A DNA stretch of 64,000 nucleotides from Candidatus Calditenuaceae archaeon HR02 (GCA_002898395.1 BEHE01000011.1:14276-78275); one strand, 5' to 3'; positions 29,469 through 52,706 are shown, counted from the stretch's first letter. Numbers and translations are program-made. Notes: generated from the sequence alone by a model not told the origin.

Positions 29469-29759
29469 TAGAGTCTAAGAAGGGATGTTTTTGTGTTCTA
29501 TGTCCATCCCGAGGACTATAAAAGTTCTTGGAGAAGGTCAGAGCATCTATACCCAGGAAGAAGTGTCTCATCGAACTCACGATAAAGATGATACAGTATC
29601 ACATGGACGAGAAAGAGAAGGGAAGGCCTGTTAGAAGATTTGTAATATGTCGCAGAGAGATATCTGCAGGAGTGTGATGAAGCGCATACGAAAACCCGCC
29701 CCCCTCCCTCCTTTATACCTTCTTTCTCACAACATTGAAAAAGCTCCAATTATTAAAAT
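29469..29759 (+). mobile_element. 3' remnant of LAGLIDADG element abutting tRNA-Pro
   Basis: Aligns by eye with 52339-52633 (LAGLIDADG C-terminus and tail); frameshifted. Confidence 0.8.
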
Positions 29760-29835
29760 TGGGGCCGGCCGGATTTGAACCGGCGACCTCCCGGGCCCGA
29801 GCCGGGCATCTTAGACCATGCTCGACCACGGCCCC
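29760..29835 (-). tRNA. tRNA-Pro(CGG)
   Basis: GGGGCCG acceptor stem, anticodon arm CCCGG-CTCGGGC-CCGGG, GGTTCAAATCC T-loop; CCA not encoded. Confidence 0.95.
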
Positions 29836-29890
29836 CCTACGGCACTATGCAGACGCGCAAAAATAAACGTAATCCGGGCTGGAGGGATTG

Positions 29891-30121
29891 TTAGACGACT
29901 ATAGCGGTTTCGGTTCTCTCCACCCCGTCGATTGTGTGTATCTTGGACAGCACCGTGTCTGTCAGCTTCTTCAAGTCTTCAGCCTCAATCAGGACTAGTA
30001 CGTCATACCTGCCGGTAATCATGCATGCGAGTCTGCATCCCGAAATTTTCCCAACCTGCTCTGCTACGTCCTTAGCCTTGCCCGCCCTCGTCGTGATGAA
30101 GACATATGCCTGGACCGCCAC
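29891..30121 (-). CDS. Lrp/AsnC ligand-binding (RAM) domain protein
   Basis: AYVFI, ITGRYDVLV, IDGVERTET. Confidence 0.88.
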   Translation of the reverse strand: MAVQAYVFITTRAGKAKDVAEQVGKISGCRLACMITGRYDVLVLIEAEDLKKLTDTVLSKIHTIDGVERTETAIVV

Positions 30122-30169
30122 AACTACTCTACTGCCATATAACCGTATATCCTTTCCTCTTTAACCAGG

Positions 30170-30720
30170 ACTTCACAGACCCCTACCGCATTTGTGAAGT
30201 GTGGAGGGGTGGTGAGTGAACTGTGAAGTGTGAAATATGACCCGGGGATTCTGGAAAGTATATCTATGGATTATGTAGGTGTTACCTATATATGGATACT
30301 TGCAGTTTTCGGGTATCTCTCCGGGATGCGTGATTGCTGCAGAAAATGAGCATTATCAAACCATCAGAGTCGGGGTCCGAGGTCTTTGATACCCATAACT
30401 CTACCCGGTTAAGATGGTGGTGAAAGGGTGAACGCCAACATTCCACAGGCTCCATTGGAAATGGAGGGGTTCTAAAGACCTCAACCCCATTCACAGTGAA
30501 AAGCCGCGAAAAACAGCTCCTCGGACAGAAAGGGGAGAGTTAAGCCCTTAGGCCAAAGACCTATAATTGGCGGCTCAGATGAGTGGAGTAGCCAAACCAG
30601 CTTTAACGCCCCCACCCCACCCATTCGAGTGGAAATTAACTAGAATCAACACAAACAGAGAAGAGAAAATAAAATTAGATAAATAATTCTTCTCGTCCTA
30701 GAATTTTTTGACATAGCTAT
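30170..30720. other. Probable replication origin (oriC) with ORB elements
   Basis: CTCCATTGGAAATGGAGGGGT at 30450-30470, inverted ORB-like copies at about 30484-30502 and 30609-30635, AT-rich tract about 30655-30710, immediately upstream of cdc6. Confidence 0.8.
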
Positions 30721-30752
30721 CATTAACACTGCTAGCTATCTCTTGAATTGTT

Positions 30753-32024
30753 GTGGACGGCTTTCAGTTGAAGGAGAGGGGTGACCCTCTGGGCGACCTG
30801 CTGGCTAGGGTTTCTACAACGTCGCGCATATTCAAGGACAGAGAGGTTCTGCGAGCAGACTACATTCCTGGAAACCTTCCGCACAGGTGGGAGCATATCA
30901 AGAGGCTGGGTGAGATCGTCTCAACAGGTCTCAAGATGCATAGGCCGAGTAACGTCTTCATATACGGCAAAACAGGGACGGGAAAGACCGCTGTTGTCAA
31001 GCATGTCTTCAAGAGGTTCTCTGCGGAGGCCGAGAAGCTCGGCATACCGCTCCGCTTCGTCTACATCAACTGCAGGATCGCTGGGACAGAGTATAGAGTC
31101 TTGGCCGAGCTCTGCGAATCCCTCGGGATCCAAGTCCCATTCACAGGCCTCTCGAAGAGCGAAGTCTTCAACAGGTTCCGAAGAGCTCACGTGTCTTCGC
31201 AGAACCTCCTGATAGTCTGTTTGGATGAGATTGATATCTTGGTCAAAGGGTTTGGGGACGCCTTGCTATACGAGCTGACAAGGATTAATGAGGGTGTTGA
31301 GGGAGGCAAGCTCTCTCTCATTGGGGTGTCGAACGACCTCATGTTTAAGGAGATGCTAGACCCGAGGGTCTTAAGCAGTCTGAGCGAGGAGGAGATCGTC
31401 TTCCACCCATACACTGCCGTCGAGCTCGTCGACATTCTGAGCGAGAGGGCTAGACTCGCCTTTCACGAGGGCGCTGTCCCTCAATCGACTATAAACCTCT
31501 GTGCAGCGCTCGCTGCTGCTGAGCACGGCGATGCTAGGAGAGCGCTCGACCTCTTGAGGGTGGCTGGAGAGATCGCTGAGAGGAATATGGCTGAGAGTGT
31601 TGAGGAGCAGCATGTTCGTATGGCGATTGGCGTGATTGAACAGGGTCGCGTTTTCGAGGCCCTAACAACGCTCCCGCTCCACGGCAGGATTGTTCTACTT
31701 GCAGTCTACCAAGCGACACTCCGCTCACCAAGCAAAATAACCTCAGGTCTGGTCTACCAGTATTACCGCTCGCTCTGCAACCAGCTCGGCCTCGAACCAC
31801 TCACCGATAGGAGGGTCAGCACCCTAATCTCGGAGCTAGACATGCTCGGAGTCCTCTCGAGCAGCGTCATAAGCTATGGGAGGTACGGGCGGACCAGGAA
31901 GATATCCTTGAAGATCCCCGTGGACGAGGTCAGGCAGGCTCTGGAGCGCGACGAGTTTCTTTCCCACCTCATGGACCAGGAAGTGGCTCAGGCGGGTAGC
32001 GTGGAGAGTGAGCGAGGTAGCTAG
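30753..32024 (+). CDS. cdc6: Orc1/Cdc6 replication initiator
   Basis: YGKTGTGKT, YINC, LDEID, LDPRVLSSL, HGDARRALDLLR, wHTH GRYGRTR. Confidence 0.96.
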   Translation: MDGFQLKERGDPLGDLLARVSTTSRIFKDREVLRADYIPGNLPHRWEHIKRLGEIVSTGLKMHRPSNVFIYGKTGTGKTAVVKHVFKRFSAEAEKLGIPLRFVYINCRIAGTEYRVLAELCESLGIQVPFTGLSKSEVFNRFRRAHVSSQNLLIVCLDEIDILVKGFGDALLYELTRINEGVEGGKLSLIGVSNDLMFKEMLDPRVLSSLSEEEIVFHPYTAVELVDILSERARLAFHEGAVPQSTINLCAALAAAEHGDARRALDLLRVAGEIAERNMAESVEEQHVRMAIGVIEQGRVFEALTTLPLHGRIVLLAVYQATLRSPSKITSGLVYQYYRSLCNQLGLEPLTDRRVSTLISELDMLGVLSSSVISYGRYGRTRKISLKIPVDEVRQALERDEFLSHLMDQEVAQAGSVESERGS

Positions 32025-33444
32025 GAGGCTTGCAGTCAAGGCGATCGAGCATGGCTATCAGCTCTCAGCCGAGGCTCTAGACAGGCTCCTCAGGGATGAG
32101 AATCCCTTAGGCCTTCTTGACGAGCTCCTTGCCTGGCTTGAGGCTAGGGGCACCAGCCAAGTAATAATTGACAGGCCCACGCTCGAGGTTTTCCTAGCGA
32201 GCAGAGTGGCTCGGGCCGGAGCCCCTGAAGAGGAGCAGCCCTTAGAGATCGTCCTCGAGTCGCCTACCTACGAGGACTTGTCGATAGAGGGTGTGTCGGA
32301 GGAGCAGCGAATCTATCTACTCTCTAGATTCCAGTCCATTCGGCGGGTATTCGAGGAGCGGGGCCTAGGACTCAGGCCGGCCAAGGAGCTGATGAGGGAG
32401 GAGGGTGAGGGCTATGTTGTTGGAATGGTCTTGAGCATCGTGCGCCGAGATACGCATTTTCTAGTCGAGATGGAGGACCCTGTGGATACTTGGAGCCTAA
32501 TAGCTCCCACACGCGACAGGGCCCTGGCAGCGAAGATGGAGTATATTCTGCAGGACATGGTCGTCGTCTTCCGTGCAAGGTCGAGGAGGGGACTATTGGT
32601 GGCGAGCGACGTCTACCTACCAGACACAGCGGGGAAGAAGCAGACATGGAGAGGCCCTGATAAGAACATATGCATAGTTTCAGACATCCACATAGGGAGT
32701 GAGAGACACGCGTCAGAGAGGTTCAGAAGCTTTCTCGACTGGGTCAGCAGTCCTGAGAACGAGGCCGAGAAGATAACTCTCCTAATAGTCAATGGAGACC
32801 TGGTCGACGGCGTGTATGTGTATCCTGGTCAGGAGTCCGAGCTCAGCCTTAAGTCGTATGCCGAGCAGTTCGCCGCCGCGGCTAAAGCCCTCTCAAGAAT
32901 CCCGGCGCAGGTCAAGGTCGTCTATGTGCCAGGGAACCACGAGCCCTGTAGGAGGGCGCTCCCCCAGCCGCCAGTTCAGATCAGGTATCGGCAGCTTCTC
33001 GGAGGCGGTGGCAGGATAGTCTACGCAGGCAACCCAGCGTGGATTAGGGTCGGGGGCCTAAAGATACTTGCATTCCACGGCCAGACGCTCGACGACGTGA
33101 TACAGGCTGGGACGCTCTTCAGCTACTCGACACTCCGCGAGAGGTCCAGTGAGATGATGGAGCTGCTCCTTAAGGCCAGACACTTGGCACCCACATTGGG
33201 CCTCTCCACACCCATACTACCCACGAGGACCGACTACCTCGCGGTACCCGAGCAGCCCGACATCCTCTGCCTAGGCCACACCCACGTAGCAGCCTACACA
33301 ACCTATAAGGGAACACAGCTGGTAAACAGCGGCTCATGGCAGGAGCAAACAAAGCTCCAAGAAAGCATAGGTCTTGAACCAACGGTCGGAACAGCGGTCC
33401 TACTAAACCTCAAATCCCTGTCAATACGCTTCCTATCCTTCTAG
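32008..33444 (+). CDS. DNA polymerase D small (proofreading) subunit DP1
   Basis: SDIHIGS, GDLVDGVYVYPGQ, PGNHE, FHG, RHLAPT, GHTH, NSGSWQEQT. Confidence 0.92.
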   Translation: MSEVARRLAVKAIEHGYQLSAEALDRLLRDENPLGLLDELLAWLEARGTSQVIIDRPTLEVFLASRVARAGAPEEEQPLEIVLESPTYEDLSIEGVSEEQRIYLLSRFQSIRRVFEERGLGLRPAKELMREEGEGYVVGMVLSIVRRDTHFLVEMEDPVDTWSLIAPTRDRALAAKMEYILQDMVVVFRARSRRGLLVASDVYLPDTAGKKQTWRGPDKNICIVSDIHIGSERHASERFRSFLDWVSSPENEAEKITLLIVNGDLVDGVYVYPGQESELSLKSYAEQFAAAAKALSRIPAQVKVVYVPGNHEPCRRALPQPPVQIRYRQLLGGGGRIVYAGNPAWIRVGGLKILAFHGQTLDDVIQAGTLFSYSTLRERSSEMMELLLKARHLAPTLGLSTPILPTRTDYLAVPEQPDILCLGHTHVAAYTTYKGTQLVNSGSWQEQTKLQESIGLEPTVGTAVLLNLKSLSIRFLSF

Positions 33445-33464
33445 ACCGGCCGGGTGGTCTGGGG

Positions 33465-35447: not shown

Positions 35448-35454
35448 CACATAA

Positions 35455-35751: not shown

Positions 35752-35760
35752 CCTTCCTAA

Positions 35761-36021
35761 TTAATCTGGATCCTTATATGAGATTCCTATCGACTCTACG
35801 AGCTTGCCGAGCATGTTTCCAGCACACCTCCCGAAGAAACCTCCTAAAACCTTGTCTCTAACGACTGCTGGAGGCGGAGGCTCAGCCCTCCTCCAACCCC
35901 TAGAGCGCGTCTCTATCTCGCTTAGCGATGTGGGCTCCTCGTATGGATAATCCCTCCTCATAGGCGCCGACCACAACTCTCTGAAGACAGCCTCAGCAAC
36001 TCTGAGACCCCCTTCCGCCAC
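35761..36021 (-). pseudogene. Truncated ADP-ribosylglycohydrolase-family fragment
   Basis: YPYEEPTSL..DKVLGGFFGRCAGNMLGKLVE then premature end. Confidence 0.6.
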
Positions 36022-36039
36022 CCTTCTTCTCTTCAGCCC

Positions 36040-36369
36040 TTATCTTCTTGACTTGTTTCTTTGTTTTGTGTTGCATCTAACCTGTTCTGTGTTTATGTAT
36101 TGTTGGCATTTTGAGCAGTATTTAAATCCCCGACTATATGCACCACTCCTAGCGGCTGGATATATCTTAGACTCACATTCTCAAACCTTACTCTGAGGGT
36201 GTCTGTGGAGTAGTCTTATCCTGATTGGCCTCTCCCTGTTTAATAATAGTTCTGAGGCCTCGGCAGGTCTCCTTACCTTAAGCCTGCCTGAGTCGATATC
36301 GTATTCTAGGCTCCCTGATATAGAGGCCTTCCTCGAGGGGAGTCTTGATGACAGCCCTATCACCCCCAT
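36040..36369 (-). pseudogene. Small zinc-finger protein with an in-frame TGA
   Basis: ORF 36181-36369 continues in frame past TGA as ECESKIYPAARSGAYSRGFKYCSKCQQYINTEQVRCNTKQRNKSRR*; second copy at 51998-52123. Confidence 0.6.
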
Positions 36370-36487
36370 TAATCATTCCTTCCAGTTCTGGCGCCTTAAT
36401 CTTGAGCCCCGGCCCTCCACTGTTGTATGAGGCTGAGGACTAGGCCTAGTCGTGAATGTAGGAAGAGGTGGCCTAAACGGTACATAA

Positions 36488-37078
36488 GTGTCGAGGTCGA
36501 GGGGTGGATGGGGGGGTTTGGAGAGGCACTACCTCTCGTATCCGGTTAGGGTGAGGATGTGTCGAAGGGTGCTGGAGCTCAGGGGAGAGGGTCTGAGTTA
36601 TGGGATGATTCTGGAGAGGCTTTACGAGGAGTTCAGGGTGTGGATAAACAAGAGCCTTATCAGCTATTGGTTTAGGGGAATTCATACACCCAGATGCAGG
36701 GTCAATGTAATCAAGAAGGAGGATTATTGGTTTGGGTATGTTGTCGGGAGTGTTTTATCGGATGGCAACAGAAATAGACATACTGGCAACATAGGCGTTG
36801 AAATATACACCAAGGATCGCGAGTTTACTGAGATGTGTACTAAGGCTCTGAGGAGGATAGGAGTGAGCCCATCGATAAGGTTCAAGGACGGTCGTTACAT
36901 AGTGCGCGCAAAGTCAACCGAGCTATACTATCTACTAGATAGTGGCTAGTGGCGGAAATACATAGACTCCGGCACCGAAGCTAGACTGGGATTCCTCAGG
37001 GGCTTCTTCGACGGTGATGGTGTCTATCGGGGCTACGTTGCTGGCAATATTAGCTGTTCTAGTGGTGTTGAGGCCTAG
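36488..37078 (+). pseudogene. LAGLIDADG homing endonuclease (copy A), frameshifted and truncated
   Basis: N-terminal HTH-like GLSYGMI..KSLISYW, motif 1 GYVVGSVLSDG, after frameshift motif 2 LGFLRGFFDGDG. Confidence 0.85.
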
Positions 37079-37167
37079 CATTGGATTGCTGACAGCGATT
37101 AAGGGCATGACGGCGATGAAATACTTGGCAGTATTGCTGATCCCCAAGTTAGTACAGGTGGCCTAGA

Positions 37168-38100
37168 ATGAGTGATAGGAGAGAAGAAATAATGGAGAAG
37201 AGGAGGAGGTGTCTTCCTAGAGATCTGAGGATAAAGATTTATGAGGATGTCCTGGAACTAGCAAAGAAAGGACTATCATACAGGGAGATAGTCAATGAGA
37301 TAGAGAGGAGATAGGGAGTTGTTCTCAATGAATCCCAATGTAGCTACTGGAATAGAAGAATACATTCACCATACAACGGTATAAGGACCCCGTCGATAGA
37401 GTTTCTAAAACCATCAGAGGACTTAGCATATGTTATAAGTGTGGTGGCTGGGGATGGATGTGCTTGGCGGAGAGGTAGGCCACGGCGCGGATACAGGAAA
37501 TACTGCATTGGATTAGAGGTTAAGGATAGGGAGTTTGACGAGAGTTCGGTAGGAGGATAGCTAAGGTGTTAGGAAGAGAACCGCCGAGACCAAGGCTAAA
37601 TAAATATGGTAGATGGGTCGTTGCAGTTCAGTCTAGGACTCTCTATGAATTGCTTAAGAAGCCCGTCGATATCGACAGAATAAGACCATTCGTTGAACAC
37701 TGTGAGCGATGTATCTCAATGTTTCTGAGAGGGTTCTTTGATAGCGAGGCATGCGTCTATAAAGACGGCACCATAACCGTGTATAACACCGACTATAAAC
37801 TACTAACATACGTCATATATCTCCTAGAGAAAATTAGTATAGAGACGACCCAGAAAGAGCCGAGGATTAATAAACGAGCTGGCGGACCGTTTAGAGAGCC
37901 AAAGACTGGCAAACTATACAAATCCAGAAGAGACGTCTACTACATCAGGATATGGAGGGGCTTTAATAAGAGGTTTTACGAGAAAGTTGGCTTTAACCAT
38001 TGAAAGAAAAAGGATAAGGCTAGAAGAATATCTCAGGAGAAGAGGACTAATACCAACCACCTCCCCCCTTCCTCCTACTCCATTTCCCACTTACCCATAA
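37168..38100 (+). pseudogene. LAGLIDADG homing endonuclease (copy B), with a stop and frameshifts
   Basis: GLSYREIV..*..SYW, LAYVISVVAGDG, VKDREF, MFLRGFFDSEA, YNTD, FYEKVGF; ends about 40 bp from the tRNA-Trp 3' end. Confidence 0.88.
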
Positions 38101-38138
38101 TCAAACCAACACACCCTCACTAACTAGAAACATAGCCA

Positions 38139-38245
38139 TGGGGCCGGTGGGACTTGAACCCACGGCTTCCGGGTCTCTTCTGTGCCAGCCACACGTGTTG
38201 ATGGGATCTGGAGCCCGGCGCCCTACCTTGCTAGGCCACGGCCCC
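38139..38245 (-). tRNA. tRNA-Trp(CCA) with 33-nt intron at 37/38 (38175-38207)
   Basis: GGGGCCG stem, CCGGG-CTCCAG^A-CCCGG anticodon arm, GGTTCAAGTCC. Confidence 0.9.
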
Positions 38246-38348
38246 GCCGCCTTCTTGAGAGTTGGGAAGCCACAATTAATCCTTTTTCCCGGCTGAGTGC
38301 CTTGCGGGAAACGTTAAAGCATGGTCTTGATGGTGTTTTGTCTGTCCG

Positions 38349-39245: not shown

Positions 39246-39337
39246 GCCTAGTGCGGCGACAATTTTCCGCTTCATGCATCAATTTCTATACATTTGAAGA
39301 ATAAAAAATCATATTTGATGCAACAACACAAGAGTAA

Positions 39338-43462: not shown

Positions 43463-43479
43463 GACTCTACGCTACAGGC

Positions 43480-44001: not shown

Positions 44002-44076
44002 GACTCCCCCGCCAACCAGCCGCTCCGAGTTATCCAAAAATACCCCCAGCCCCACCACTCTACGCGGGGGCAGGAC

Positions 44077-44151
44077 GCTCCGGTAGTATAGCCCGGTCAA
44101 GTATGCGGGCCTCTCGAGCCCGAGACCCGGGTTCAAATCCCGGCCGGAGCA
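44077..44151 (+). tRNA. tRNA-Glu(CTC)
   Basis: GCTCCGG/CCGGAGC stem, CGGGC-CTCTCGA-GCCCG, GGTTCAAATCC. Confidence 0.95.
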
Positions 44152-44193
44152 TTAAAAGTTATTATTAATAAGCATGAGGAGATGAAGGAGTGA

Positions 44194-44326
44194 GTTTTCG
44201 TCTGTGCTTCATCATACTCCTGCCGATATCTCTCAGTAACATATTACAAATCTTCCAACAGTCCTTCCTTTCTCCTATCTCGTCCATATAATACCGTATA
44301 TTCTTTATCGAGAGTTCGATGAGACG
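44194..44326 (-). mobile_element. Short remnant of the same LAGLIDADG element, abutting tRNA-Glu
   Basis: Reverse complement aligns with about 29564-29695 (gtctcatcgaactc...gatgaagc.ca.acgaaaac). Confidence 0.8.
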
Positions 44327-44496
44327 CCGCTTTCGAGGTATCGACGTTCCGACGTAATCATGGAACTTCTGATGGGCTTTCTAAGTAGTGCTATTACAAA
44401 TGAAAATGGGGCAAAAATCTCAGAAGAACGGGAACCGTGTCGTCTTTTTGGTTTATTGGACAATATTTAATTAAGGGACTGCACGTTTGTTGGGAC

Positions 44497-45381
44497 ATGT
44501 GTAGGATGGTTGCGCTGAGTTTTCGCGGCGAGGCGTCTGAGACTGCGCGGGGGGTTCTCAAGCATCTTGTGGAGGCTTCGCGGAGTGATCCCTACCTTCG
44601 GGAGATTGCCGGTGATAGTAGGCACTGTCACGGCTACGGATACGTGGCGGCTCTTAGAAGAAAGGGTCTCTGGAGGGTCGTGTATGAGCGGTTTGACGCT
44701 GAGCCTACCTTAAGCGGCGAGGAGGCGTGTGAAGCTAACCTCGAAGCATTAGACTACTGTGTTAAGCGGCTCTCACAGACCGTTAAAGACGATGTGGAGG
44801 AGGCGATGATAGTTCTACACTCTAGGAGGACGCGCGGTGAGCCCCGTGGAGGTGTCGCAGCCCATCCTTTCCGGGAGGAGCTCATAATCACGGTCGAGGA
44901 CGGCCCCGAGCTAGCCGAGCTCTACCTCTCACACAATGGAGGGGTCAAGAAGGATATTTTGGCAGCACATCTAGGCATCGAAAACTACAAGCTCTACACA
45001 GACTCACACCTCTATCTAAAATACCTCGCAAAACACCTCGAGGGGGCCAGATACGAGGAAGCGCCTCAACTGGTCGCTCAGACAGTCTCAATTTCCAAGC
45101 CCCTCACAAAATCCGCATTAGACCTCTGCATACTACTTTACTCGCCGACCAAGGCCCCCATGCTTGCCGCAGCATCATATGTCGCAGAGAAGAATGACAG
45201 TGCACGCTGGAAATACTACGAACCCGTACTCATAGAGTCGAGAGGAATTACAGGATATATCTCAAGCACCATAAGAGACCTGGCTAGGAGCCAATGGCCC
45301 GAGATGAGGTTCATGGATGGCAGAGACGGCCTCGTCGTCCTGCTTAAACCAGATATGTTACAGATAATTGAAGTGCCTTAA
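44497..45381 (+). CDS. Class II (Ntn) glutamine amidotransferase-like protein
   Basis: MCRM N-terminal Cys, H.HGYG, LHSR, AHPF, SHNG, TDS. Confidence 0.8.
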   Translation: MCRMVALSFRGEASETARGVLKHLVEASRSDPYLREIAGDSRHCHGYGYVAALRRKGLWRVVYERFDAEPTLSGEEACEANLEALDYCVKRLSQTVKDDVEEAMIVLHSRRTRGEPRGGVAAHPFREELIITVEDGPELAELYLSHNGGVKKDILAAHLGIENYKLYTDSHLYLKYLAKHLEGARYEEAPQLVAQTVSISKPLTKSALDLCILLYSPTKAPMLAAASYVAEKNDSARWKYYEPVLIESRGITGYISSTIRDLARSQWPEMRFMDGRDGLVVLLKPDMLQIIEVP

Positions 45382-45459
45382 GCCCCCCGGTCAGAACTTA
45401 GGACTTTTGCAAGATCAATTAAGAAAAATTTATCTTACGCTGATTATCTGATAGAATTA

Positions 45460-46362
45460 ATGAAAATAGTTCCAAAGAATAAAGGGGTATTCACATTTAG
45501 CAGATTACATAGTCCTGTCTTAGAGGTTGACCTAGGGGAGACTCTCCTTCTTGAAACAGAAGACGCAGTTGGTGGGCAGGTCAAAGATGAGAGTACGCCA
45601 CTTGAAAAACTAGACTGGAGCAGGGTTAATAAAGCTACTGGGCCAATATACATTAGAGGGGTTAAGAGTGGGGATACACTCGTGGTGGACATTCTTGACA
45701 TCGAGGTCTCTTCGACTGGTGTTATACTCGTAGTTCCTGGGGCCGGGGCGCTGGGGAAGAAGGAATTCAAGCCAAGGGCAAAAATAGTTAGGATAAAGGA
45801 TGGCTTTGCCCATTTCGATGGAATAAGACTGAGGATAAGACCTATGGTGGGCACTATAGGTGTAGCTCCTGAGGGAGATGATTATCCCACGGGTGTGCCG
45901 TATAAGCACGGCGGGAACCTCGACTGTGTAGAAATATGTAGAGGTGCGAGACTATATCTACCCGTATTTATAGACGGTGCATTGTTTGCTGCAGGTGACT
46001 TACACGCAATCCAGGAGGATGGTGAGCTATGCGTCTCCTCAATCGAGGTGGAGGGGAAGATATTACTAAGATTTGAAGTGATAAAGGATGCGAGACCTGA
46101 GTGGCCGATAGTAGAGTATAATGATCACTTCTCAATCCTAGTAGCTGATGAGGACCTTGATAGAGCAGTAGAAATAGCGACGGAAGAGGCGGTGGGGGCG
46201 TTAATGAGGGCGAACAACTGGAGCTTTGAAGAGGCATACATGTTTAGCAGCATTGGGGTGAGGGTTGCGGTGAACCAGGTTGTAGATCCTAAAAAAGGTG
46301 TAAGAGTAATAATTCCGAAGGAGATAGTCTCTATTCAGCACTTACTCAAGAGAGAAGGGTAG
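45460..46362 (+). CDS. Acetamidase/formamidase family protein
   Basis: TGPIYI.G, PMVGTIGVAP, HGGNLD, GDLHA.Q.DGE. Confidence 0.9.
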   Translation: MKIVPKNKGVFTFSRLHSPVLEVDLGETLLLETEDAVGGQVKDESTPLEKLDWSRVNKATGPIYIRGVKSGDTLVVDILDIEVSSTGVILVVPGAGALGKKEFKPRAKIVRIKDGFAHFDGIRLRIRPMVGTIGVAPEGDDYPTGVPYKHGGNLDCVEICRGARLYLPVFIDGALFAAGDLHAIQEDGELCVSSIEVEGKILLRFEVIKDARPEWPIVEYNDHFSILVADEDLDRAVEIATEEAVGALMRANNWSFEEAYMFSSIGVRVAVNQVVDPKKGVRVIIPKEIVSIQHLLKREG

Positions 46363-46375
46363 GAGGCGCAGATAA

Positions 46376-47188
46376 TTGATAAACCAGATGTCGGACGAGG
46401 AAATAATCTCTGAAGCTATAAAGATTGTAAATGAGGGGGAAAAGCGTGGAGTCATACTCAGAATATTAGGTGCATTAGCTATACGGATACATTCAAACGG
46501 GCTTGAGGCCCTGCATAAAGGGCTTGGCCGGCTCGGGGAAAACACGAAAGGTTCTTTCACAGACATAGATTTGATAGGTTACTCCTCGCAGAGGGCCGGG
46601 GTGAGAGAACTAATGGAAAAGTATTTCTCATTTGTTATCTCTAGGCAGTTCCTCCTACTATATGGGAAGGAAAGACTTGTATATTATCACCCAGACAATC
46701 TATATCGTGTAGATATCTTCTTCGATAAGCTCTCATTCAGCCATGAAATTCAATTCAGAAAGAAGGGGAGTAGTAGGCTGGAGCTTGACAGTCCCACCAT
46801 AACGGTCTCGGACCTGCTCTTGGAAAAACTTCAGATACATCAAATAAATGAGAAAGACATTAAGGACATAATAGTGCTTTTAAGGGCGCATGATGTAGGC
46901 GAGGGAGAGGGGGATAGGATTAACCTGCAATATATCTCCAACATCTTGTGCGATGATTGGGGTTTCTGGATGGATGCGACAGAAAATCTGAGGAAGACCA
47001 TGAAATATGCAGAGAAATACTTTGAGCGGTCCTTAATTAGTCAGGAAGACTTAAGCGACGTAAATAATAAGTGCTTGAAGATTCTAGATTATTTAGAAGA
47101 ATGTCCAAAGACGAAGAACTGGGAGAAGCGGGCGAGGAAGGGTGTGAAAGAAAAGTATTGGAGGGAAGTAGAGGAACTCTACAGGTAG
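46376..47188 (+). CDS. Hypothetical nucleotidyltransferase-fold protein
   Basis: LRILGALA...TDIDL (G..DxD), VDIF, DLLLEKLQ..NEKDIKD. Confidence 0.6.
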   Translation: MINQMSDEEIISEAIKIVNEGEKRGVILRILGALAIRIHSNGLEALHKGLGRLGENTKGSFTDIDLIGYSSQRAGVRELMEKYFSFVISRQFLLLYGKERLVYYHPDNLYRVDIFFDKLSFSHEIQFRKKGSSRLELDSPTITVSDLLLEKLQIHQINEKDIKDIIVLLRAHDVGEGEGDRINLQYISNILCDDWGFWMDATENLRKTMKYAEKYFERSLISQEDLSDVNNKCLKILDYLEECPKTKNWEKRARKGVKEKYWREVEELYR

Positions 47189-47191
47189 ATC

Positions 47192-48157
47192 TTACCCCGC
47201 TGTGAAGATGTAGTCCTTGACTTTATTTTTCTCTAGTTGGATAAGCACCCCCCTCAGTATTCCTTCATGGTACTCGCTTCCAGGGTTAAAGCACATGGTT
47301 CTGCCGATCCTAGAGAACCCTCTCCCCTCATGGACATGTCCGTGGAGTCCAAGCAATGGCTGGTATGTTTCTATGTATTTCCTAACTGCCCGGCTCCCTA
47401 CTGGAGTCATTAATAACTGACCCCCCGGACCAACCCTTGGTCTTAGATCATCGTCTAGCTCGGGGGCGTAATCTATTCCAGAGTCAAATGGGGGTACGTG
47501 AATATTGTAAATGACTTCTGCCCCTGCATCGACCCTGCTCACCAGGCTAGCCATCTTAGATTCTATCTCTTCTTCAGGGATGTCTCTGGGGCACTTCCAC
47601 GGTGTGATGTTCGAGTATCCTAGACTAAGCACCTCCAGTCTATCTGATATCTGGATTACCTTCTCATTTGGGTTGATGATCACCTCGGATGAGTTTAGGA
47701 CCGGATCAATTACATAACTGTCATCGTTCCCAGGCATTACGAGGCATTTGACCCTTTTGCCTGCGAGCTTTCTCTCCGCAAACTCTACCCATCCTTGAAT
47801 AGACTCTATTATCAGGTCGTTAAAGATTTCATCCAGCTTCTCCTTCTCATTTATCAAGTTTTGCCACTCCTCTTTGCTTGTTATGAATGGATACGAGCCA
47901 GATGCCTTTATTCTATAGAGATGTTTCTCAAGCTCATCCTTACTATCCACAGAATAGGTCTCGTTGCCGGTCCTGAATTCATAGCTGCCTCCCCTATTAA
48001 ATATGGGTATGATGAATTTTCCTGTAATGTCTCCTCCCAATATAATTACATCACATTTATAGGCGTCTGCGGCGTTTATGAACTTCTTAAAACATAAATC
48101 GCTACCGTGAATGTCTGAGGCGAAAAATATTCTAATTCTGGTGTTGGACATTTTCAA
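47192..48157 (-). CDS. Icc-like metallophosphoesterase
   Basis: SDIHGS, GGDITGK, PGNDD, HVPP, LHGHVHE, NPGS. Confidence 0.88.
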   Translation of the reverse strand: MKMSNTRIRIFFASDIHGSDLCFKKFINAADAYKCDVIILGGDITGKFIIPIFNRGGSYEFRTGNETYSVDSKDELEKHLYRIKASGSYPFITSKEEWQNLINEKEKLDEIFNDLIIESIQGWVEFAERKLAGKRVKCLVMPGNDDSYVIDPVLNSSEVIINPNEKVIQISDRLEVLSLGYSNITPWKCPRDIPEEEIESKMASLVSRVDAGAEVIYNIHVPPFDSGIDYAPELDDDLRPRVGPGGQLLMTPVGSRAVRKYIETYQPLLGLHGHVHEGRGFSRIGRTMCFNPGSEYHEGILRGVLIQLEKNKVKDYIFTAG

Positions 48158-48159
48158 GC

Positions 48160-49716
48160 CTACTCGGGTGGTAGTTCTTTAAACGAGAGCTCTAGTGGTA
48201 ATCCCTTCTTGCGATGATACAGCGATGAGATGAAGTAGATAGCTATCCCTATTAAGAATAACCCTATGGTGAATGCGAGTATTGCTGGGTCTAGCTCGCC
48301 CACGAATGCCGGGGAAACACTTGCATATCCCAAGTAGATTGACAAAATTATTGATATTACCGCTAATATGTGTAGGATGGGCACTGGGCCTATCTTCGCC
48401 TTCACGATCGAGGGTGTTCTTTCCCATATGTCCCTCCTTCTGACGGGGAAGAGTAGAGCTGCTATTGAGGTGATTATCTGCATTATCATCCATCCAAAGA
48501 CTATGTAGGCAAAATACTGCAGGAGCGGAGTCCATAGCCACAGGGCTTGGAATATTATGGCGACGATTGTTACGAAGATTAAAGCAGCATAGGGTGTATG
48601 ATACTTCATGTCTACATTTGATAGGGCTGTGGGTACAACCCTGTCGAATGCCCACGCAAACACGAATCTTACCCCCGAAGCAACATATGTTAATATGGCG
48701 GCTAAAACCATCGCTCCCCAACCTATCATCATAATAGTGAATATGCGTGGGTCAACTGAGTATTGGAATAACCACATGAAGAATGGTTCTCTGGCCAGTG
48801 GGTATTTGTCGCTCCCAATCGCATACAGGTATGACAAGGCGCCGAGGAATTCCCCACCCATCCCTGCGTAAGAGACTTCATATGCCAGCCAGTCAATGAA
48901 TCCGAAGAGTAGGACAGCACCTACGATTGCAATTATTTGTGACTTGTGAACTTCTTTAATCTCGCCGGCGAGGTAGATTGAGAAGTTGAAGCCTAGGAAG
49001 TTGATGTAGGTGAATGTTAGTCCGAGGAGGGTGGCGATAGTTAAGAATGTGCCGGGGTACCCCTCCTTGACTGCCTCACTTATTATTGTGTCATATGAGA
49101 CGCCAGTAGCTTTCGCGAAGTTTGCAGCAAACCCGCTTTTGCCGGTAACAAGTAGTCCGCCCGCATAAATAACCAGGCCTATTAATACTAGTATGAAGAA
49201 GACCAATAGGACTCTCATTGTCGCCTTTGCTCCTCTCGATATTATTAGGGCGCAGATTAGATAGAATATTATTGCGAAGATGAATGTGAATTCATTTGAT
49301 GATACTGTTGATGCTAATTCGGGCATACCATTAACCTCGAATATGGGGGCCAATGTATATTGAGTGAACCATGGAATATACGCGCCGGCAACGCTCAGAA
49401 TCACCATGAATAAGAAAAAGTTGATGGCGTATCCTACTGAGGGGTGCAGTATTCTGCTTACCCAGATGTAGTCTCCGCCAGCTCTAGGCATGGCTATCGA
49501 GAACAGGGCGTAAAAGAGACCTATTACTATGCTTATTGGTATTGCAAGCAGTGCTGTAGCGGGGAGATGGGCCCCCGGATAAATTATTGATGCCCAGACA
49601 CCATAGACTAGTATTGCCATAGGAGCCATTACCATGATGTTGAAGATCATTGCGTCGAATGCTGAGATATTCCTTATGAGTCCTGAAGCCCTTCTTACGT
49701 AGACATCCCCGCTCAT
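48160..49716 (-). CDS. APC-family amino acid/polyamine permease
   Basis: YVRRASGLIR, MPRAGGDY.WVSR, R..FAWAFDR; about 12 TM. Confidence 0.88.
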   Translation of the reverse strand: MSGDVYVRRASGLIRNISAFDAMIFNIMVMAPMAILVYGVWASIIYPGAHLPATALLAIPISIVIGLFYALFSIAMPRAGGDYIWVSRILHPSVGYAINFFLFMVILSVAGAYIPWFTQYTLAPIFEVNGMPELASTVSSNEFTFIFAIIFYLICALIISRGAKATMRVLLVFFILVLIGLVIYAGGLLVTGKSGFAANFAKATGVSYDTIISEAVKEGYPGTFLTIATLLGLTFTYINFLGFNFSIYLAGEIKEVHKSQIIAIVGAVLLFGFIDWLAYEVSYAGMGGEFLGALSYLYAIGSDKYPLAREPFFMWLFQYSVDPRIFTIMMIGWGAMVLAAILTYVASGVRFVFAWAFDRVVPTALSNVDMKYHTPYAALIFVTIVAIIFQALWLWTPLLQYFAYIVFGWMIMQIITSIAALLFPVRRRDIWERTPSIVKAKIGPVPILHILAVISIILSIYLGYASVSPAFVGELDPAILAFTIGLFLIGIAIYFISSLYHRKKGLPLELSFKELPPE

Positions 49717-49798
49717 TATTCCACCTCTTCTAGTCTTGCGACCTTATGACAGCAGTATAACAGTATAAATACTTTACAGAGTTTTTAAATCGCTCATC

Positions 49799-50733
49799 CG
49801 CTCATCTTAACTTCGCAAGGGATTTATATATTCTCCTCGGGATTCGTTGGCCGTGGATCCTGAGGCCGTGAGGCTGGTCTTTCTCCCCGACAGGGATTAG
49901 TGCCTAGAATATCTCTGGAGGATTAGGTTTAGGGGAGGGCTTATGTGCGTTCATTGCGGCTCTTCTGAGGTAAGGAGGGGGTGGTAGGGACAAGAACGGT
50001 TATCAGGTATACGAGTGCGCTTCTTGTAAGAGGAAGTTCAACGACTTGACTGGAACAATATTCTCTAGGCATAAGCTGCATGTAGAGGAGATGTTCTACA
50101 TAGTCTTCTCCATGGAGGGGAAGAGCATAGGTCAGATAGCTAAGGAGCTTGCCTGAGCTTCGATAGGAAAGATCTTAGGAATGAGTGCCTGTTCTCGCAT
50201 TTGTTCAGGTGTATATCTTCATCTGCGTATCTCTCGGAGTGGTTTATCCTCATGTGATTTATCCCAATGGAATCCAACCTATCGTATGCAGGGTAGTTGT
50301 CAGTTATGATTACGCAATCTTTAGATGCCCTATATCTAATCTCTTCTACTCCCTGACTCATGTCACTGAGCAGAACGAACTCGGTCATCCCGTCTCTCCT
50401 CCTTACCAGCGTTAGCACGGGTGGCCTATCTTTTTCGTAACTTCCCCTACCCTTTACCGATAGTCCCCTCCTCCTAGGATTACCCTCCTTAACTCCCTTA
50501 TTCCCGGAATTCACGTAGATCTCGTCGGCCTCGCATATACCCTCTAGGGACAGCTTCCCTGACCTCTCGGCAAGTCTATGGACCTTCCTTCACGAATCTG
50601 AGTACAGATACGTAGCTCCTGGGGAGTGAGCAAGAGATACTTCCAAGGATACCTATCATTCCTAGCTCTACTAATCAACAGACCATTTGATTGGTTCTTT
50701 AACCTGTTATCCCTTGCGATCTTAAGATGAGCG
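49799..50733 (+). mobile_element. IS1595-family (ISXO2-like) element, inactive, with internal inversion
   Basis: 24-bp TIRs cgctcatcttaa(ct/ga)tcgcaaggga at 49799-49822 and 50710-50733; Zn ribbon CVHCGS..CASCKRKFNDLTGTIF on +; EADEIY, TDNYPAY, INHS, ENRHSFLR on -; GVSKRYFQGY on +. Confidence 0.88.
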
Positions 50734-50849
50734 ATTAAAATATTGTAAAGGTGTTGGCGGTGTGGAGGCTGTCCAGTCCTGAAACGCGATTTTGGTTTTG
50801 TGGAGGGAATATTTAGATAGCGGCTATTTTGTTGGCTTTGTAAAGGCGG

Positions 50850-51980
50850 GTGGTGTTGTCGAAGGGCCTTCGCGTCGTCTTGGTGTTAGGTGTTGTAAGC
50901 CTTCTCGGGGATTTTGTCTACGAGGGTGGGAGGTCGGTTCTACCCGGTTATATGCGTCAGCTGGGGATGGGTGCATTCTTGGTTGGGAGTGTTTTGGGTT
51001 TCGCGGAGTTTGCGGGCTGGCTGGCGAGGCCTCTGGGCGGGCTGGTAGCGGATAAGACGGGTAAGTTCAGCTCCATAACCAAGGCAGGGTATGCGGGGTT
51101 GTTCGTTGTCCCTTTGATGGCTTTAGCCCGTGACTGGCTCGCGCTAGCGCTCCTAGTCTTCGCTGAGCGGATGCTTCGGGGGTTGAGAGTGCCTGCGAGG
51201 GATGCGATGCTGGCCAGGATGAGGGGGAGCGTGGGTCTTGGAACGGCTTTCGGGCTCCATGAACTCCTCGACCAGTTTGGCGCCACTGCGGGGCCGCTGC
51301 TCGCCGCAGCAGTCCTAGCATTATACAGGGACACGGGGCTCGCCCTCCTATCCCTGCTCATCCCATATCTCTTCTTGCTGATCGCTCTTCTAAGGGTCCC
51401 AGAGTATTCTGAGCCGCCGTCTCAGAGGCTTTCTCGCTCCGGGCCAACCAAACGTGTATACCTCTTCTCACTCGTCGTGGGGCTGAACGCCGCAGGCCTC
51501 CTACCCCTACCAATAATCCTATACCTCGTCTCGCTCAGTGTGAACTCGGGCTCCTGGCTGGTCCCAGCAACTTATACCCTCGCGATGATTGTGGATGCGG
51601 CCGCGGCAATAGTGCTCGGAAGGATCTTCGACAGGGCTGGGCCCCGGGTCCTAGCCTTAATGATGGTCTTGGCTACGACTCCATGCCTCTTTGTCGGTGA
51701 GAAGATAGACCTTTTACTGCTGGCAGCGGGGCTGGTTGGTGTTGTCGTCGGCGCGCAGGAGTCGGTCTTCAGGGCGATGGTGGCCCGTCTTGCGGTAGAG
51801 GGCGGTATAGGCGGCTCCTACGCGGTCTACGGCCTGGCAATAGGTGCGGGAAGCGCCGCGGCCGGCCTCGTCTATGGATTGATGGTAGACCTGGGCCTCA
51901 GCCTCCCCTACATCCTCACATACTCCATAGCCACTGAAGCCTCAGCCCTCATAATCTTCTCTAGGGCGATAAGCCCATAG
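50850..51980 (+). CDS. MFS transporter
   Basis: SLLGDFVYEG, GLVADKTG, R.P.RDAML, AFGLHELLDQFGA..GP. Confidence 0.9.
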   Translation: MVLSKGLRVVLVLGVVSLLGDFVYEGGRSVLPGYMRQLGMGAFLVGSVLGFAEFAGWLARPLGGLVADKTGKFSSITKAGYAGLFVVPLMALARDWLALALLVFAERMLRGLRVPARDAMLARMRGSVGLGTAFGLHELLDQFGATAGPLLAAAVLALYRDTGLALLSLLIPYLFLLIALLRVPEYSEPPSQRLSRSGPTKRVYLFSLVVGLNAAGLLPLPIILYLVSLSVNSGSWLVPATYTLAMIVDAAAAIVLGRIFDRAGPRVLALMMVLATTPCLFVGEKIDLLLLAAGLVGVVVGAQESVFRAMVARLAVEGGIGGSYAVYGLAIGAGSAAAGLVYGLMVDLGLSLPYILTYSIATEASALIIFSRAISP

Positions 51981-51984
51981 GGTC

Positions 51985-52633
51985 TCTCTTCAGCCTCCTA
52001 TCTTCTTGGCGTGTTTCTTAGTTTTGTGTTGCATCCTAGGGCATCTAATCTGCTCTGTGTTTATGTATTGTTGGCATTTTGAGGAGTATTTAAATCCCCT
52101 ACCATACGCATACCCCTAGCGGCGGGGGAGTCTCTCTAACCCCAGACGAGAGTGGGTTTCTCCGGGGGCTTCTTCGACGGTGATGGGGTGGGATTGATGC
52201 CAGCCTACGCGAACACCGCTGTCGAATTACTTGAATATATCAGGCAGCTTCCTACTGGGCTCGGGATAACGACGAGTCCACTGATACTAATGGCTAAGAA
52301 GGGTAGCAAATCATGGAGTCCAAAGGGACAAAAATGGGTAGAGTCTAAGAAGGATGTTTTTGTGGTCTACATCCATCCCGAGGACTATCAAAGGTTCTTA
52401 GGGAAGGTAGGAACATCGATACCCAGGAAGAAATACCCCAATTGAATTCTCGATAAAAAAGAGGATACAATATTGCAGGGATGAGATAAGAGAGGTAAAG
52501 GATTGGTGGGAATTTTGTGAGATTTTGAAGAAAAGTATCGGCAGCAGAATGATGAAGCGCAGACGAAAACCCGCCCCCTCCCTCCTTTATACCTTCTTTC
52601 TCACAACATTGAAAAAGCCCTAATTATTAAAAT
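51985..52633. mobile_element. Internally deleted Zn-finger plus LAGLIDADG element abutting tRNA-Val
   Basis: 51985-52123 matches 36028-36156; 52152-52445 encodes GFSGGFFDGDG..YANT..FLGKVG; 52339-52633 matches 29469-29759. Confidence 0.85.
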
Positions 52634-52706
52634 TGGGGCCGGCCGGATTTGAACCGGCGTCCTCCGCCGTGTAAGGGCGGCGTCATGGCCGCTAGACCAC
52701 GGCCCC
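52634..52706 (-). tRNA. tRNA-Val(TAC)
   Basis: GGGGCCG stem, CCGCC-CTTACAC-GGCGG, GGTTCAAATCC. Confidence 0.95.

What the first reader, a model, noticed from the sequence alone, without database searches (positions are those of the whole stretch)
29469..52706. All four tRNA genes are docked at their 3' end by an integrase-free LAGLIDADG element, always tail-to-tail
Seen: tRNA-Pro (29760), Trp (38139), Glu (44151) and Val (52634) each have LAGLIDADG-element sequence within about 0-45 bp of the discriminator base, on the opposite strand. The Pro, Glu and Val flanks are mutually homologous (29469-29759, reverse complement of 44194-44326, 52339-52633). The Val copy also shares its left end (51985-52123 vs 36028-36156) and motif-2 DNA (ggggcttcttcgacggtgatgg) with the locus at tRNA-Trp. 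No integrase, transposase, TIR, intein or intron context is visible. Established: LAGLIDADG genes normally sit in introns or inteins and home by cut-and-repair; tRNA-targeting islands normally use tyrosine integrases. Inference: a free-standing homing element that spreads between non-allelic tRNA loci using the conserved tRNA 3' half as target or homology arm.
Basis: partly seen in the sequence, partly recalled or inferred. Interest (0 to 1): 0.88.

Follow-up and report, generated by a model that had tools for sequence, protein, structure and literature searches.

The report
Homing-endonuclease elements docked behind tRNA genes
In this hot-spring archaeon about three quarters of all tRNA genes have a selfish LAGLIDADG endonuclease element, usually decayed, inserted exactly at their 3' end, and relatives of the gene sit the same way in many other archaea, which points to a mobile element that uses tRNA genes as its landing site.

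Summary
All four window tRNAs (Pro, Trp, Glu, Val) carry LAGLIDADG-element sequence starting at the discriminator base, with the gene running towards the tRNA.

Genome-wide:
- 33 of 47 tRNA 3' flanks are homologous to another tRNA's 3' flank, against 5 of 47 5' flanks.
- 32 of 39 element right ends abut a tRNA 3' end.

All four window copies are insertions, because congeneric genomes have empty sites at all four loci. In 42 of 80 loci from other Nitrososphaeria and Bathyarchaeia, a homologous ORF ends roughly 70-380 bp before a convergent tRNA.

The protein is an I-DmoI-like double-motif LAGLIDADG enzyme with an added N-terminal helix-turn-helix domain and conserved catalytic acids. No tyrosine integrase was detected.

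The best reading is a free-standing homing element that breaks tRNA genes and is copied in using tRNA 3'-half homology. This is supported indirectly but not proven.

The shared "left end" is the non-coding left end of an IS110-like (bridge-RNA-recombinase-fold) insertion sequence. A second LAGLIDADG type shares another leader with the same IS family, so mobilisation in trans remains a live rival.

The parts
29469..29759 (+). Remnant of a type-1 LAGLIDADG element: C-terminal coding remnant plus about 190 nt of 3' region. It ends at the discriminator base of tRNA-Pro.
   Evidence: The orthologous site in G007 and G004 has the flank 9-28 bp from the tRNA.
29760..29835 (-). tRNA-Pro(cgg). Its 3' 26 nt are identical to those of tRNA-Val(tac).
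35781..38138 (+). Whole insertion at the 3' end of tRNA-Trp. It is absent in G002, G005 and G007, and G004 has only a 60-bp gap there. Its distal 247 bp carry an 86-aa ORF (35761..36021, minus strand) that lies elsewhere in relatives.
36028..36532 (+). Leader LE-A. This is a non-coding repeat of about 490 nt with a TATA-like box. It is identical in kind to the left end of the IS110-like IS, and here it is fused to the type-1 LAGLIDADG ORF start.
36488..37075 (+). Type-1 LAGLIDADG pseudogene. It keeps the HTH-like N-terminus, motif 1 and motif 2, has an in-frame stop at 36947, and is truncated after motif 2.
37153..38138 (+). Type-2 LAGLIDADG element. The pseudogene has an in-frame stop at 37312, a frameshift near 37540 and a stop at 38001. 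An untranslated right end of about 80-135 nt abuts tRNA-Trp.
   Evidence: Copies 89-91% identical lie at tRNA-Phe and tRNA-Ile.
38139..38245 (-). tRNA-Trp(cca) with a 33-nt intron.
44077..44151 (+). tRNA-Glu(ctc).
44152..44449 (-). Type-1b element remnant at the 3' end of tRNA-Glu. G002 has 42 unrelated bp in its place.
51981..52633 (+). Internally deleted type-1 element between the stop codon of a membrane-protein gene and tRNA-Val. It comprises an LE-A fragment (51985-52123), a motif-2 to C-terminus remnant (52152-52445) and the 3' region (52446-52633). In G002 only about 5-10 nt separate the gene end from the tRNA.
52634..52706 (-). tRNA-Val(tac).

Best explanation
These are copies, mostly decayed, of free-standing LAGLIDADG homing-endonuclease elements whose niche is the 3' end of tRNA genes.

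Proposed mechanism (inferred, not shown):
1. The enzyme is an I-DmoI-like monomer with an extra N-terminal HTH domain. It makes a double-strand break in or at the end of an unoccupied tRNA gene.
2. The broken tRNA side invades an element-bearing tRNA gene through the conserved T-arm/acceptor half.
3. Repair synthesis copies the element outward from the tRNA.
4. The far end is sealed without homology.

This gives a fixed junction at the discriminator base, a fixed convergent orientation and variable distal ends. It also allows occasional carry-over of donor flank, replacement of older elements, and now and then duplication or replacement of the tRNA 3' half. The element's T-rich first bases next to the tRNA could serve as a terminator for it, which would make insertion harmless (my inference). 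After fixation the gene decays, following the usual homing-endonuclease life cycle.
For: Shown:
- LAGLIDADG_3 domain. D106 and D199 are invariant and E201 nearly invariant in 18 sequences of 34-56% identity. Equating D106/E201 with the catalytic acids of I-DmoI is recalled, not tested.
- The model (pLDDT 84.9) matches I-DmoI and PI-PfuI. By sequence, I-DmoI is also the closest PDB hit.
- 33 of 47 3' flanks are shared against 5 of 47 5' flanks. 32 of 39 right ends lie at tRNA 3' ends. Of the other 7, 2 abut tRNA-like sequence, 3 keep 7-17 nt of a tRNA end, and 2 have none.
- Empty sites in congeners exist for Val (G002), Trp (G002, G005, G007; G004 nearly), Glu (G002) and Pro (G007, G004).
- The empty sites share no downstream sequence, so the common target can only lie in the tRNA.
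- Flanks at different tRNAs are up to 93-99% identical: Leu/Leu 99%, Lys/undetermined tRNA 95%, His/Leu 94%, Phe/Trp 93%.
- Flank similarity correlates with the tRNA 3' 32 nt (r=0.24, p=0.0014) and not with the 5' 32 nt.
- The copy at C4:50721 carries about 45 nt of the 3' end of the single-copy gene that flanks the Val locus.
- At Trp, a type-2 element has replaced the tRNA-proximal half of a type-1 element.
- In G002, tRNA-Pro(cgg) has a new 3' half plus a 33-nt intron next to a LAGLIDADG element. The old 32-nt 3' half is displaced 2.1 kb away.
- Geometry is conserved across taxa. 5 of 6 genes in G002 and 42 of 80 loci in named MAGs of Caldarchaeales, Nitrososphaerales, Nitrosopumilales and Bathyarchaeota have a convergent tRNA within 600 bp. 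By my estimate chance would give about 1-2%.
- G002 elements lack the IS-like leaders yet are still docked at tRNAs.
Against: - No cleavage, target site or expression was shown.
- Only 2, perhaps 3, ORFs are intact in this genome, so current activity is uncertain.
- Both LAGLIDADG types share long 5' leaders with an IS110-like recombinase family, which offers another possible motor.
- A subfamily-specific site-specific system would also produce the correlation with the tRNA 3' half.
- Many copies have a defined left end, and about 290-bp derivatives with one shared deletion junction occur at 6 or more loci. A pure one-sided repair model does not predict this, although gene conversion between copies could explain it.
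- 30 of 80 loci in other genomes show no tRNA within 600 bp. ARAGORN may miss some tRNAs.
- The two internal tRNA breakpoints (about position 40-42; G002 Pro, C28 Gly-like) do not coincide with the usual junction at position 73, so the cut site is unclear.
- T-loop type does not distinguish occupied from free tRNAs (17 of 34 against 2 of 11, p=0.086).
Confidence: 0.5

Rival explanations
1. The docking is done in trans by the IS110-like (bridge-RNA-type) recombinase. On this view the LAGLIDADG-bearing units are non-autonomous derivatives that keep the IS left end, with its guide RNA, and an IS-like C-rich right end. The LAGLIDADG gene would be cargo that replaced the recombinase ORF.
For: - LE-A (33 copies) is the left end of a roughly 1.48-kb IS. 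Its 280-aa ORF folds like the IS621 and ISCro4 recombinases (TM 0.62, probability 1.0) and resembles IS110 clusters in the ESM Atlas.
- A second leader, LE-B (1.1 kb), is shared between type-2' LAGLIDADG copies and IS copies, with the ORFs exchanged at the start codon.
- Insertions are clean, with no obvious target duplication.
- Deletion derivatives keep both ends.
- A C-rich motif lies near the right ends of all element types.
Against: - The autonomous IS copies are not at tRNAs and have other conserved flanks.
- G002 elements at tRNAs have neither leader.
- The IS110-like ORF was found in 10 of 31 relatives, against 20 of 31 for LAGLIDADG. G005, G013, G019 and G025 hold 6-14 LAGLIDADG matches with none or one weak IS match.
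- tRNA docking extends to Bathyarchaeota and soil Nitrososphaerales.
- Precise recombination does not explain donor-flank carry-over or 3'-half replacement.
Confidence: 0.17
2. These are remnants of elements integrated by a tyrosine (SSV- or pNOB8-type) or other site-specific integrase acting on tRNA 3' halves. The integrase is now lost or encoded elsewhere.
For: - tRNA 3' halves are the classical archaeal attachment sites, as stated in the Discussion passages of PMC3293823.
- One locus (G002 tRNA-Pro) has a 32-nt direct repeat of the 3' half flanking the element.
Against: - PF00589 gave 0 matches in the own genome (93.65% complete), while all 14 control genomes gave a hit.
- No integrase ORF lies in any element read.
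- The G000 scan found no displaced 3' half carrying a T arm, apart from one cut by a contig end. One Gly-like 3' half was hidden under an ARAGORN call and seen only by eye.
- The junction lies at the discriminator base, not inside the tRNA, and the empty sites show no att-like repeat.
Confidence: 0.07
3. The elements are not, or no longer, mobile. On this view they are an ancient tRNA-linked module kept alike by gene conversion among tRNA flanks. The LAGLIDADG+HTH protein would be domesticated, for example as a DNA-binding factor like WhiA, or the flank would serve as tRNA terminator or processing signal.
For: - The geometry is conserved across classes.
- T-rich tracts lie directly after the tRNA.
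- WhiA, a LAGLIDADG+HTH regulator, is among the fold matches (ranks 39, 45, 49).
Against: - Congeners lack the module at all four window loci.
- Most copies are pseudogenes or fragments, while the acidic catalytic residues are conserved in intact ones.
- Copy number varies from 1 to 36 matches among 7 congeners.
- Contigs break in these repeats.
Confidence: 0.08

Closest known systems
I-DmoI and related archaeal intron-encoded LAGLIDADG enzymes (I-Tsp061I), and the PI-PfuI intein endonuclease
   Same: Monomeric enzyme with two LAGLIDADG motifs and the same fold. Acidic residues are conserved at the motif ends.
   Different: This one is not inside an rRNA intron or an intein. It is free-standing behind tRNA genes, has an extra N-terminal three-helix HTH-like domain (two such repeats in G002), and occupies many non-allelic sites instead of one.
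Phage T4 SegB and other free-standing phage homing endonucleases ('intronless homing')
   Same: A free-standing endonuclease gene sits among or next to tRNA genes. It transfers itself together with flanking sequence after cutting the recipient (abstract of PMC2330249, seen in the listing).
   Different: SegB is a GIY-YIG enzyme at a single phage locus and acts between co-infecting genomes. Here a LAGLIDADG enzyme occupies dozens of different chromosomal tRNA loci in a cellular genome.
The 'a+b' insertion sequence at tRNA-Thr in Caldiarchaeum subterraneum (Sugahara et al. 2012, PMC3293823; abstract, section 6 and found passages read)
   Same: A related lineage. A conserved non-coding region of about 545 bp precedes an 813-bp ORF. 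The element has several genomic copies, is linked to tRNA genes, and shows tRNA fragments and intron gain at the site.
   Different: [quoted passage not shown] Whether 'b' is the LAGLIDADG ORF or the IS110-like ORF could not be tested, because the main text gives no sequence and the supplements are closed.
Archaeal SSV-type and pNOB8-type integrative elements at tRNA genes
   Same: They occupy the tRNA 3' side and reconstitute the tRNA gene.
   Different: [quoted passage not shown] No integrase was found here, and such a repeat was seen in only one case, in a relative.
IS110-family elements with bridge RNA (IS621, ISCro4)
   Same: Sibling elements in this genome have an IS621-like recombinase fold and a long non-coding left end. 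That left end is shared with the LAGLIDADG elements.
   Different: The tRNA-docked units carry a LAGLIDADG ORF where the recombinase would be. Pfam and PDB sequence searches do not recognise the recombinase. No guide RNA was demonstrated.
tRNA-targeting retrotransposons of eukaryotes (Dictyostelium TRE, yeast Ty3), recalled and not checked in any call
   Same: They use the whole tRNA gene family as a multi-copy safe landing zone with fixed position and orientation.
   Different: They are retroelements that recognise the RNA polymerase III machinery. Here the element is DNA-based, has no reverse transcriptase, and has an exact junction at the discriminator base.

Membership tests
LAGLIDADG homing endonuclease (two-motif monomer) | Pfam LAGLIDADG domain above the curated cut-off | tested here: met
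   PF14528 scores 50-66 bits against a cut-off of 22.5 for the C29, C28 and C2 ORFs. The window copies also match.
LAGLIDADG homing endonuclease (two-motif monomer) | Two LAGLIDADG helices ending in conserved acidic residues | tested here: met
   D106 and D199 are invariant and E201 is conserved in at least 90% of 18 sequences. Their assignment as catalytic residues by analogy to I-DmoI is recalled.
LAGLIDADG homing endonuclease (two-motif monomer) | I-DmoI-like alpha-beta-beta-alpha-beta-beta-alpha double fold | tested here: met
   The model has pLDDT 84.9. Foldseek gives PI-PfuI E=2.6e-10 and I-DmoI E=4e-9, with TM by target 0.65-0.72.
LAGLIDADG homing endonuclease (two-motif monomer) | Site-specific double-strand cleavage of a long target | not testable with these tools
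   This needs an enzyme assay.
Intron- or intein-encoded homing element | The ORF lies inside a self-splicing or BHB intron, or in an intein | tested here: not met
   The ORFs lie between a tRNA 3' end and the next gene. The only intron here (33 nt, tRNA-Trp) is empty. Separate intein-type hits lie in four large ORFs elsewhere.
Free-standing homing endonuclease gene (intronless homing) | Presence/absence polymorphism at the same site in related genomes | tested here: met
   Empty sites exist for Val, Trp, Glu and Pro in congeners.
Free-standing homing endonuclease gene (intronless homing) | Co-conversion of the neighbouring gene with the endonuclease gene | tested here: inconclusive
   The 3'-half correlation and the replaced 3' half of tRNA-Pro in G002 fit co-conversion. 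tRNA-Trp is unchanged outside its intron between filled and empty alleles.
Free-standing homing endonuclease gene (intronless homing) | The endonuclease cuts the unoccupied allele in or near the neighbouring gene | not testable with these tools
   This needs an enzyme assay.
Integrase-mediated tRNA-targeting island | A tyrosine recombinase gene in the element | tested here: not met
   PF00589 gave 0 matches in the genome while 14 of 14 controls were positive. None was seen in the elements read.
Integrase-mediated tRNA-targeting island | [quoted passage not shown] | tested here: not met
   None occurs at the four window loci. The G000 scan found only a 3' half cut by a contig end. One case occurs in G002.
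IS110-family insertion sequence | A DEDD/Tnp recombinase ORF inside the unit | tested here: not met
   The tRNA-docked units carry LAGLIDADG instead. The recombinase-like ORF is found only in sibling units away from tRNAs.
IS110-family insertion sequence | A non-coding end encoding a bridge/guide RNA | not tested
   The leader is shared and has no conserved ORF. Rfam gave no family. Structure and complementarity were not analysed.

The most novel reading that the evidence does not exclude
A LAGLIDADG+HTH endonuclease lineage, spread through Nitrososphaeria and Bathyarchaeia, has specialised on the tRNA gene family as a multi-copy landing zone. It hops between non-allelic tRNA genes by repair primed from the tRNA 3' half. 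As by-products it replaces tRNA 3' halves, introduces introns at the break point and leaves tRNA halves behind. That would make it a concrete, testable source of the disrupted (intron-containing and split) tRNA genes of Archaea. In this genus it has also exchanged promoter/leader modules with bridge-RNA-type IS110-like elements.
Probability: 0.35. Interest if true: 0.9.

Novelty: new variant of a known kind. Interest (0 to 1): 0.8.

Why it matters
Homing endonucleases are thought of as single-site parasites of introns and inteins. An enzyme family that colonises most tRNA genes of a genome would be a new lifestyle for them. It would also be the first prokaryotic, DNA-based counterpart of tRNA-targeting retrotransposons.

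It bears on an old question: why archaeal tRNA genes carry odd introns and are sometimes split. One relative shows an element arriving together with a new 3' half and an intron at the break point.

The intact ORFs are candidates for thermostable enzymes that recognise tRNA-gene sequence.

The shared leaders with IS110-like recombinases are unexplained, and they point to exchange of modules between two classes of selfish DNA.

On the practical side, these repeats break assemblies at tRNA genes, which explains why tRNAs sit at contig ends in such MAGs.

Tried and rejected
- **Sequencing runs.** One DNA study holds part of the stretch (share 0.34), and no RNA holder is listed. The Logan contigs are short and shallow. 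No contig joins across an element, so nothing can be said on polymorphism within the population or on expression.
- **Rfam on the window and on three element loci at E<=1.** Only tRNAs were found. No family matched the leaders.
- **C/D-box reading.** By eye, the ATGATGA motif in the type-1 3' region could have marked a C/D-box sRNA. I dropped this because no D box lies at the right spacing. No tool test was run.
- **T-loop type as target signature.** 17 of 34 against 2 of 11, p=0.086, not significant. Two ARAGORN calls with 574-974-nt 'introns' and no Rfam support were dropped before the count.
- **Scan for displaced tRNA 3' halves in G000.** Of 27 motif hits outside tRNA calls, only one looks like a tRNA, and it lies at a contig end.
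- **Pfam and PDB sequence search on the IS110-like ORF.** No significant match. Its assignment rests on fold and the ESM Atlas.
- **NCBIfam on the LAGLIDADG ORFs.** Only weak matches to intein-bearing proteins.
- **Literature.** No paper in the held library describes LAGLIDADG genes docked at archaeal tRNA 3' ends. This covers those six term sets only. Supplements of PMC3293823 (figures S1, S2 with the a and b sequences) were closed and may bear on whether its ORF b is this family.

Full report
**The observation**

The window lies in a 1.73-Mb, 36-contig archaeal assembly. Database homologues of its LAGLIDADG protein are named Aigarchaeota/Caldarchaeales and Nitrososphaerota.

tRNA-Trp needs intron-aware detection. 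Printing the last 30 nt of every tRNA with its 3' flank shows that homology between loci starts at or within a few bases of the discriminator base. The ORF remnants are LAGLIDADG_3 and run towards the tRNA.

**The pattern is genome-wide**

- Of 47 ARAGORN tRNA calls, 33 have a 400-nt 3' flank homologous to another tRNA's 3' flank. Only 5 have such a 5' flank.
- With six 110-nt right-end probes I found 39 right-end copies. 32 abut an ARAGORN tRNA 3' end on the correct strand, with offsets from -3 to +25.
- Of the other 7, two abut tRNA-like sequence that ARAGORN missed, three keep only 7-17 nt of a tRNA 3' end, and two have none.
- There are at least three right-end subtypes (1a, 1b, 2) and two ORF types.
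- Intact ORFs are rare. C29:518-1402 (294 aa) lies 93 bp from tRNA-Ala. C28:8963-9835 is 290 aa. C2:60649-61530 has an open frame of 294 codons, but its first start codon leaves 209.
- Several contigs begin or end inside these repeats next to a tRNA.

**The window copies are insertions**

- Val. In congener G002 the gene left of tRNA-Val ends about 5-10 nt from the tRNA 3' end, against 653 bp here.
- Trp. G002, G005 and G007 are contiguous across the site, and G004 has a 60-bp gap. Window 35781-38137 is therefore extra.
- Glu. G002 has 42 bp where the window has 297 bp.
- Pro. In G007 and G004 the conserved flank lies 9-28 bp from a tRNA-Pro.

The empty sites share no sequence downstream of the tRNA.

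**The protein**

An 18-sequence alignment (34-56% identity to the query) keeps both LAGLIDADG motifs with their acidic residues, plus an N-terminal region rich in conserved basic and aromatic residues. The AlphaFold model (pLDDT 84.9) has three N-terminal helices followed by an I-DmoI-like core. Foldseek and phmmer both give I-DmoI and PI-PfuI as closest. G002 proteins have two HTH-like repeats in front.

**Beyond this genome**

- Homologues occur in 20 of 31 relatives searched, including 7 of 7 congeners, with 1 to 36 matches each.
- In G002, 5 of 6 genes end 70-110 bp before a convergent tRNA.
- In 80 loci from named MAGs (Caldarchaeales, Calditenuis, Nitrososphaerales, Nitrosopumilales, Bathyarchaeota and others), 42 have a convergent tRNA within 600 bp of the match end, many at 72-130 bp and the rest up to about 380 bp.
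- Of the remaining 38 loci, 3 have a tRNA upstream on the same strand, 1 has a co-directional tRNA downstream, 30 have none and 4 have no room.
- In a Caldarchaeum MAG the ORF follows tRNA-Gly in the same direction.

With about 46 tRNAs per 1.7 Mb, chance would give roughly 1-2% (my estimate).

**How it may move**

Several features fit repair-mediated copying primed from the tRNA side.

- Element flanks at different tRNAs are up to 93-99% identical.
- Flank identity correlates with identity of the tRNA 3' 32 nt (Mantel r=0.24, p=0.0014) and not with the 5' 32 nt (r=-0.02, p=0.60). This used 29 element-bearing tRNAs out of the 34 I count as bearing.
- The copy beside C4:51082 carries about 45 nt of the 3' end of the single-copy gene that flanks the Val locus.
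- At Trp, a type-2 element replaces the proximal half of a type-1 element.
- In G002, tRNA-Pro(cgg) has a new 3' half, of the T-stem type seen in tRNA-Pro(tgg), together with a 33-nt intron. The old 32-nt 3' half sits 2.1 kb away on the far side of the element.
- In G000:C28 the intact ORF is convergent with a Gly-like tRNA 5' fragment that ends near position 40. The matching 3' half lies 3.1 kb downstream.

No PF00589 integrase was detected.

**The complication**

The shared 'left end' is a non-coding unit of about 490 nt (LE-A) with 33 copies. In full copies such as C7:41310-42791, C4:235-1687 and C6:6010-7471, LE-A precedes a 280-aa ORF and a conserved right end. Deletion derivatives also exist.

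Pfam and PDB sequence search do not recognise that ORF. Its model (pLDDT 88.2) matches the IS621 and ISCro4 bridge-RNA recombinases (TM 0.62), and TasR (TM 0.60). The ESM Atlas places it near IS110 clusters.

A second leader, LE-B (1.1 kb), is shared in the same way between type-2' LAGLIDADG copies (C2, C29, C6, C1) and IS copies (C3, C18, C19, C24). The two ORF kinds are therefore interchangeable behind the same leaders.

This keeps mobilisation in trans alive as a rival. Against it:
- The IS copies are not at tRNAs.
- G002's docked elements lack both leaders.
- The IS-like ORF is found in only 10 of 31 relatives.

**Literature**

Six searches found no description of this arrangement. Sugahara et al. 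2012 (PMC3293823; abstract, section 6 and passages read) described a leader-plus-ORF 'a+b' element with tRNA fragments in Caldiarchaeum and read it as plasmid-derived. I could not test its relation to either ORF family.

**Verdict**

The homing interpretation is the best-supported reading (about 0.5) but remains unproven.

Noticed in passing
G000:C7:41310-42791, C4:235-1687, C6:6010-7471 (full copies). In the window only the leader is present: 36028-36532 and 51985-52123.: An IS family of about 1.48 kb with a 490-nt non-coding left end and a 280-aa ORF. Pfam does not recognise the ORF, but it folds like the bridge-RNA recombinases IS621 and ISCro4, and like TasR. A variant has a 1.1-kb leader. 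The ORF and the LAGLIDADG gene are swapped behind the same leaders at the start codon.
   Followed up: partly
L044 (G002:C1:883000-892000) 2841-2872 and 4986-5094: tRNA-Pro(cgg) of a congener has a replaced 3' half and a 33-nt intron at about position 41/42. The old 32-nt 3' half is displaced to the far end of a 2.1-kb LAGLIDADG element.
   Followed up: partly
L002 (G000:C28:7500-12334) 1291-1335 and 4441-4476: A Gly-like tRNA appears split. A 5' fragment ending near the anticodon loop is convergent with the intact LAGLIDADG ORF. The matching 3' half lies 3.1 kb downstream, followed by an element remnant. An intact tRNA-Gly(tcc) lies on the other strand in between. ARAGORN mis-calls the 3' half as 'tRNA-Asn(att)' with a 79-nt intron.
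   Followed up: partly
window 45372-50789: A 5.4-kb low-GC (45-50%) block is absent in G002, where the two flanking genes are 15 bp apart. It carries a formamidase-like gene, a metallophosphoesterase-like gene, an amino-acid permease and an IS1595-type transposase fragment (50143-50514).
   Followed up: partly
window 35761-36021 (-): An 86-aa ORF at the distal end of the Trp insertion lies at other places in G003, G004, G005 and G007. It may have been carried along with an element or moved by recombination between elements.
   Followed up: no
G000:C1:88873-89166, C1:149826-150071, C9:26986-27283, C29:11182-11465, C28:11976-12287, C4:71855-72163: Derivatives of about 290 bp (leader start plus type-1 3' end) that share the same internal deletion junction occur at six loci. 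Two of these loci have no tRNA.
   Followed up: partly
right ends of all element types, e.g. window 29690-29712, 38055-38075, 52570-52590: A C-rich motif (a run of C interrupted by T) lies 55-85 nt from the tRNA in every LAGLIDADG subtype, and about 10 nt from the right end of the IS110-like element. It is unexplained.
   Followed up: no
whole genome G000: PF00589 (tyrosine recombinase) gives no match at all, so not even a Xer-type recombinase is detected in the 93.65%-complete assembly.
   Followed up: no
G000:C4:94680-95189, C9:68720-68908, C3:76534-77016, C1:137978-138127: LAGLIDADG_3 hits lie inside four large ORFs (624-1042 aa), probably inteins. Two further free-standing hits (C1:96240, C7:31138) are not near tRNAs.
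   Followed up: no
orthologous tRNA-Pro locus: window 29760-29835, L037 1501-1578, L039 659-735: The tRNA at this syntenic position is Pro(cgg) in G000 and G002 but Pro(tgg) in G007 and G004, with a different T stem. This suggests exchange between isoacceptor genes.
   Followed up: no
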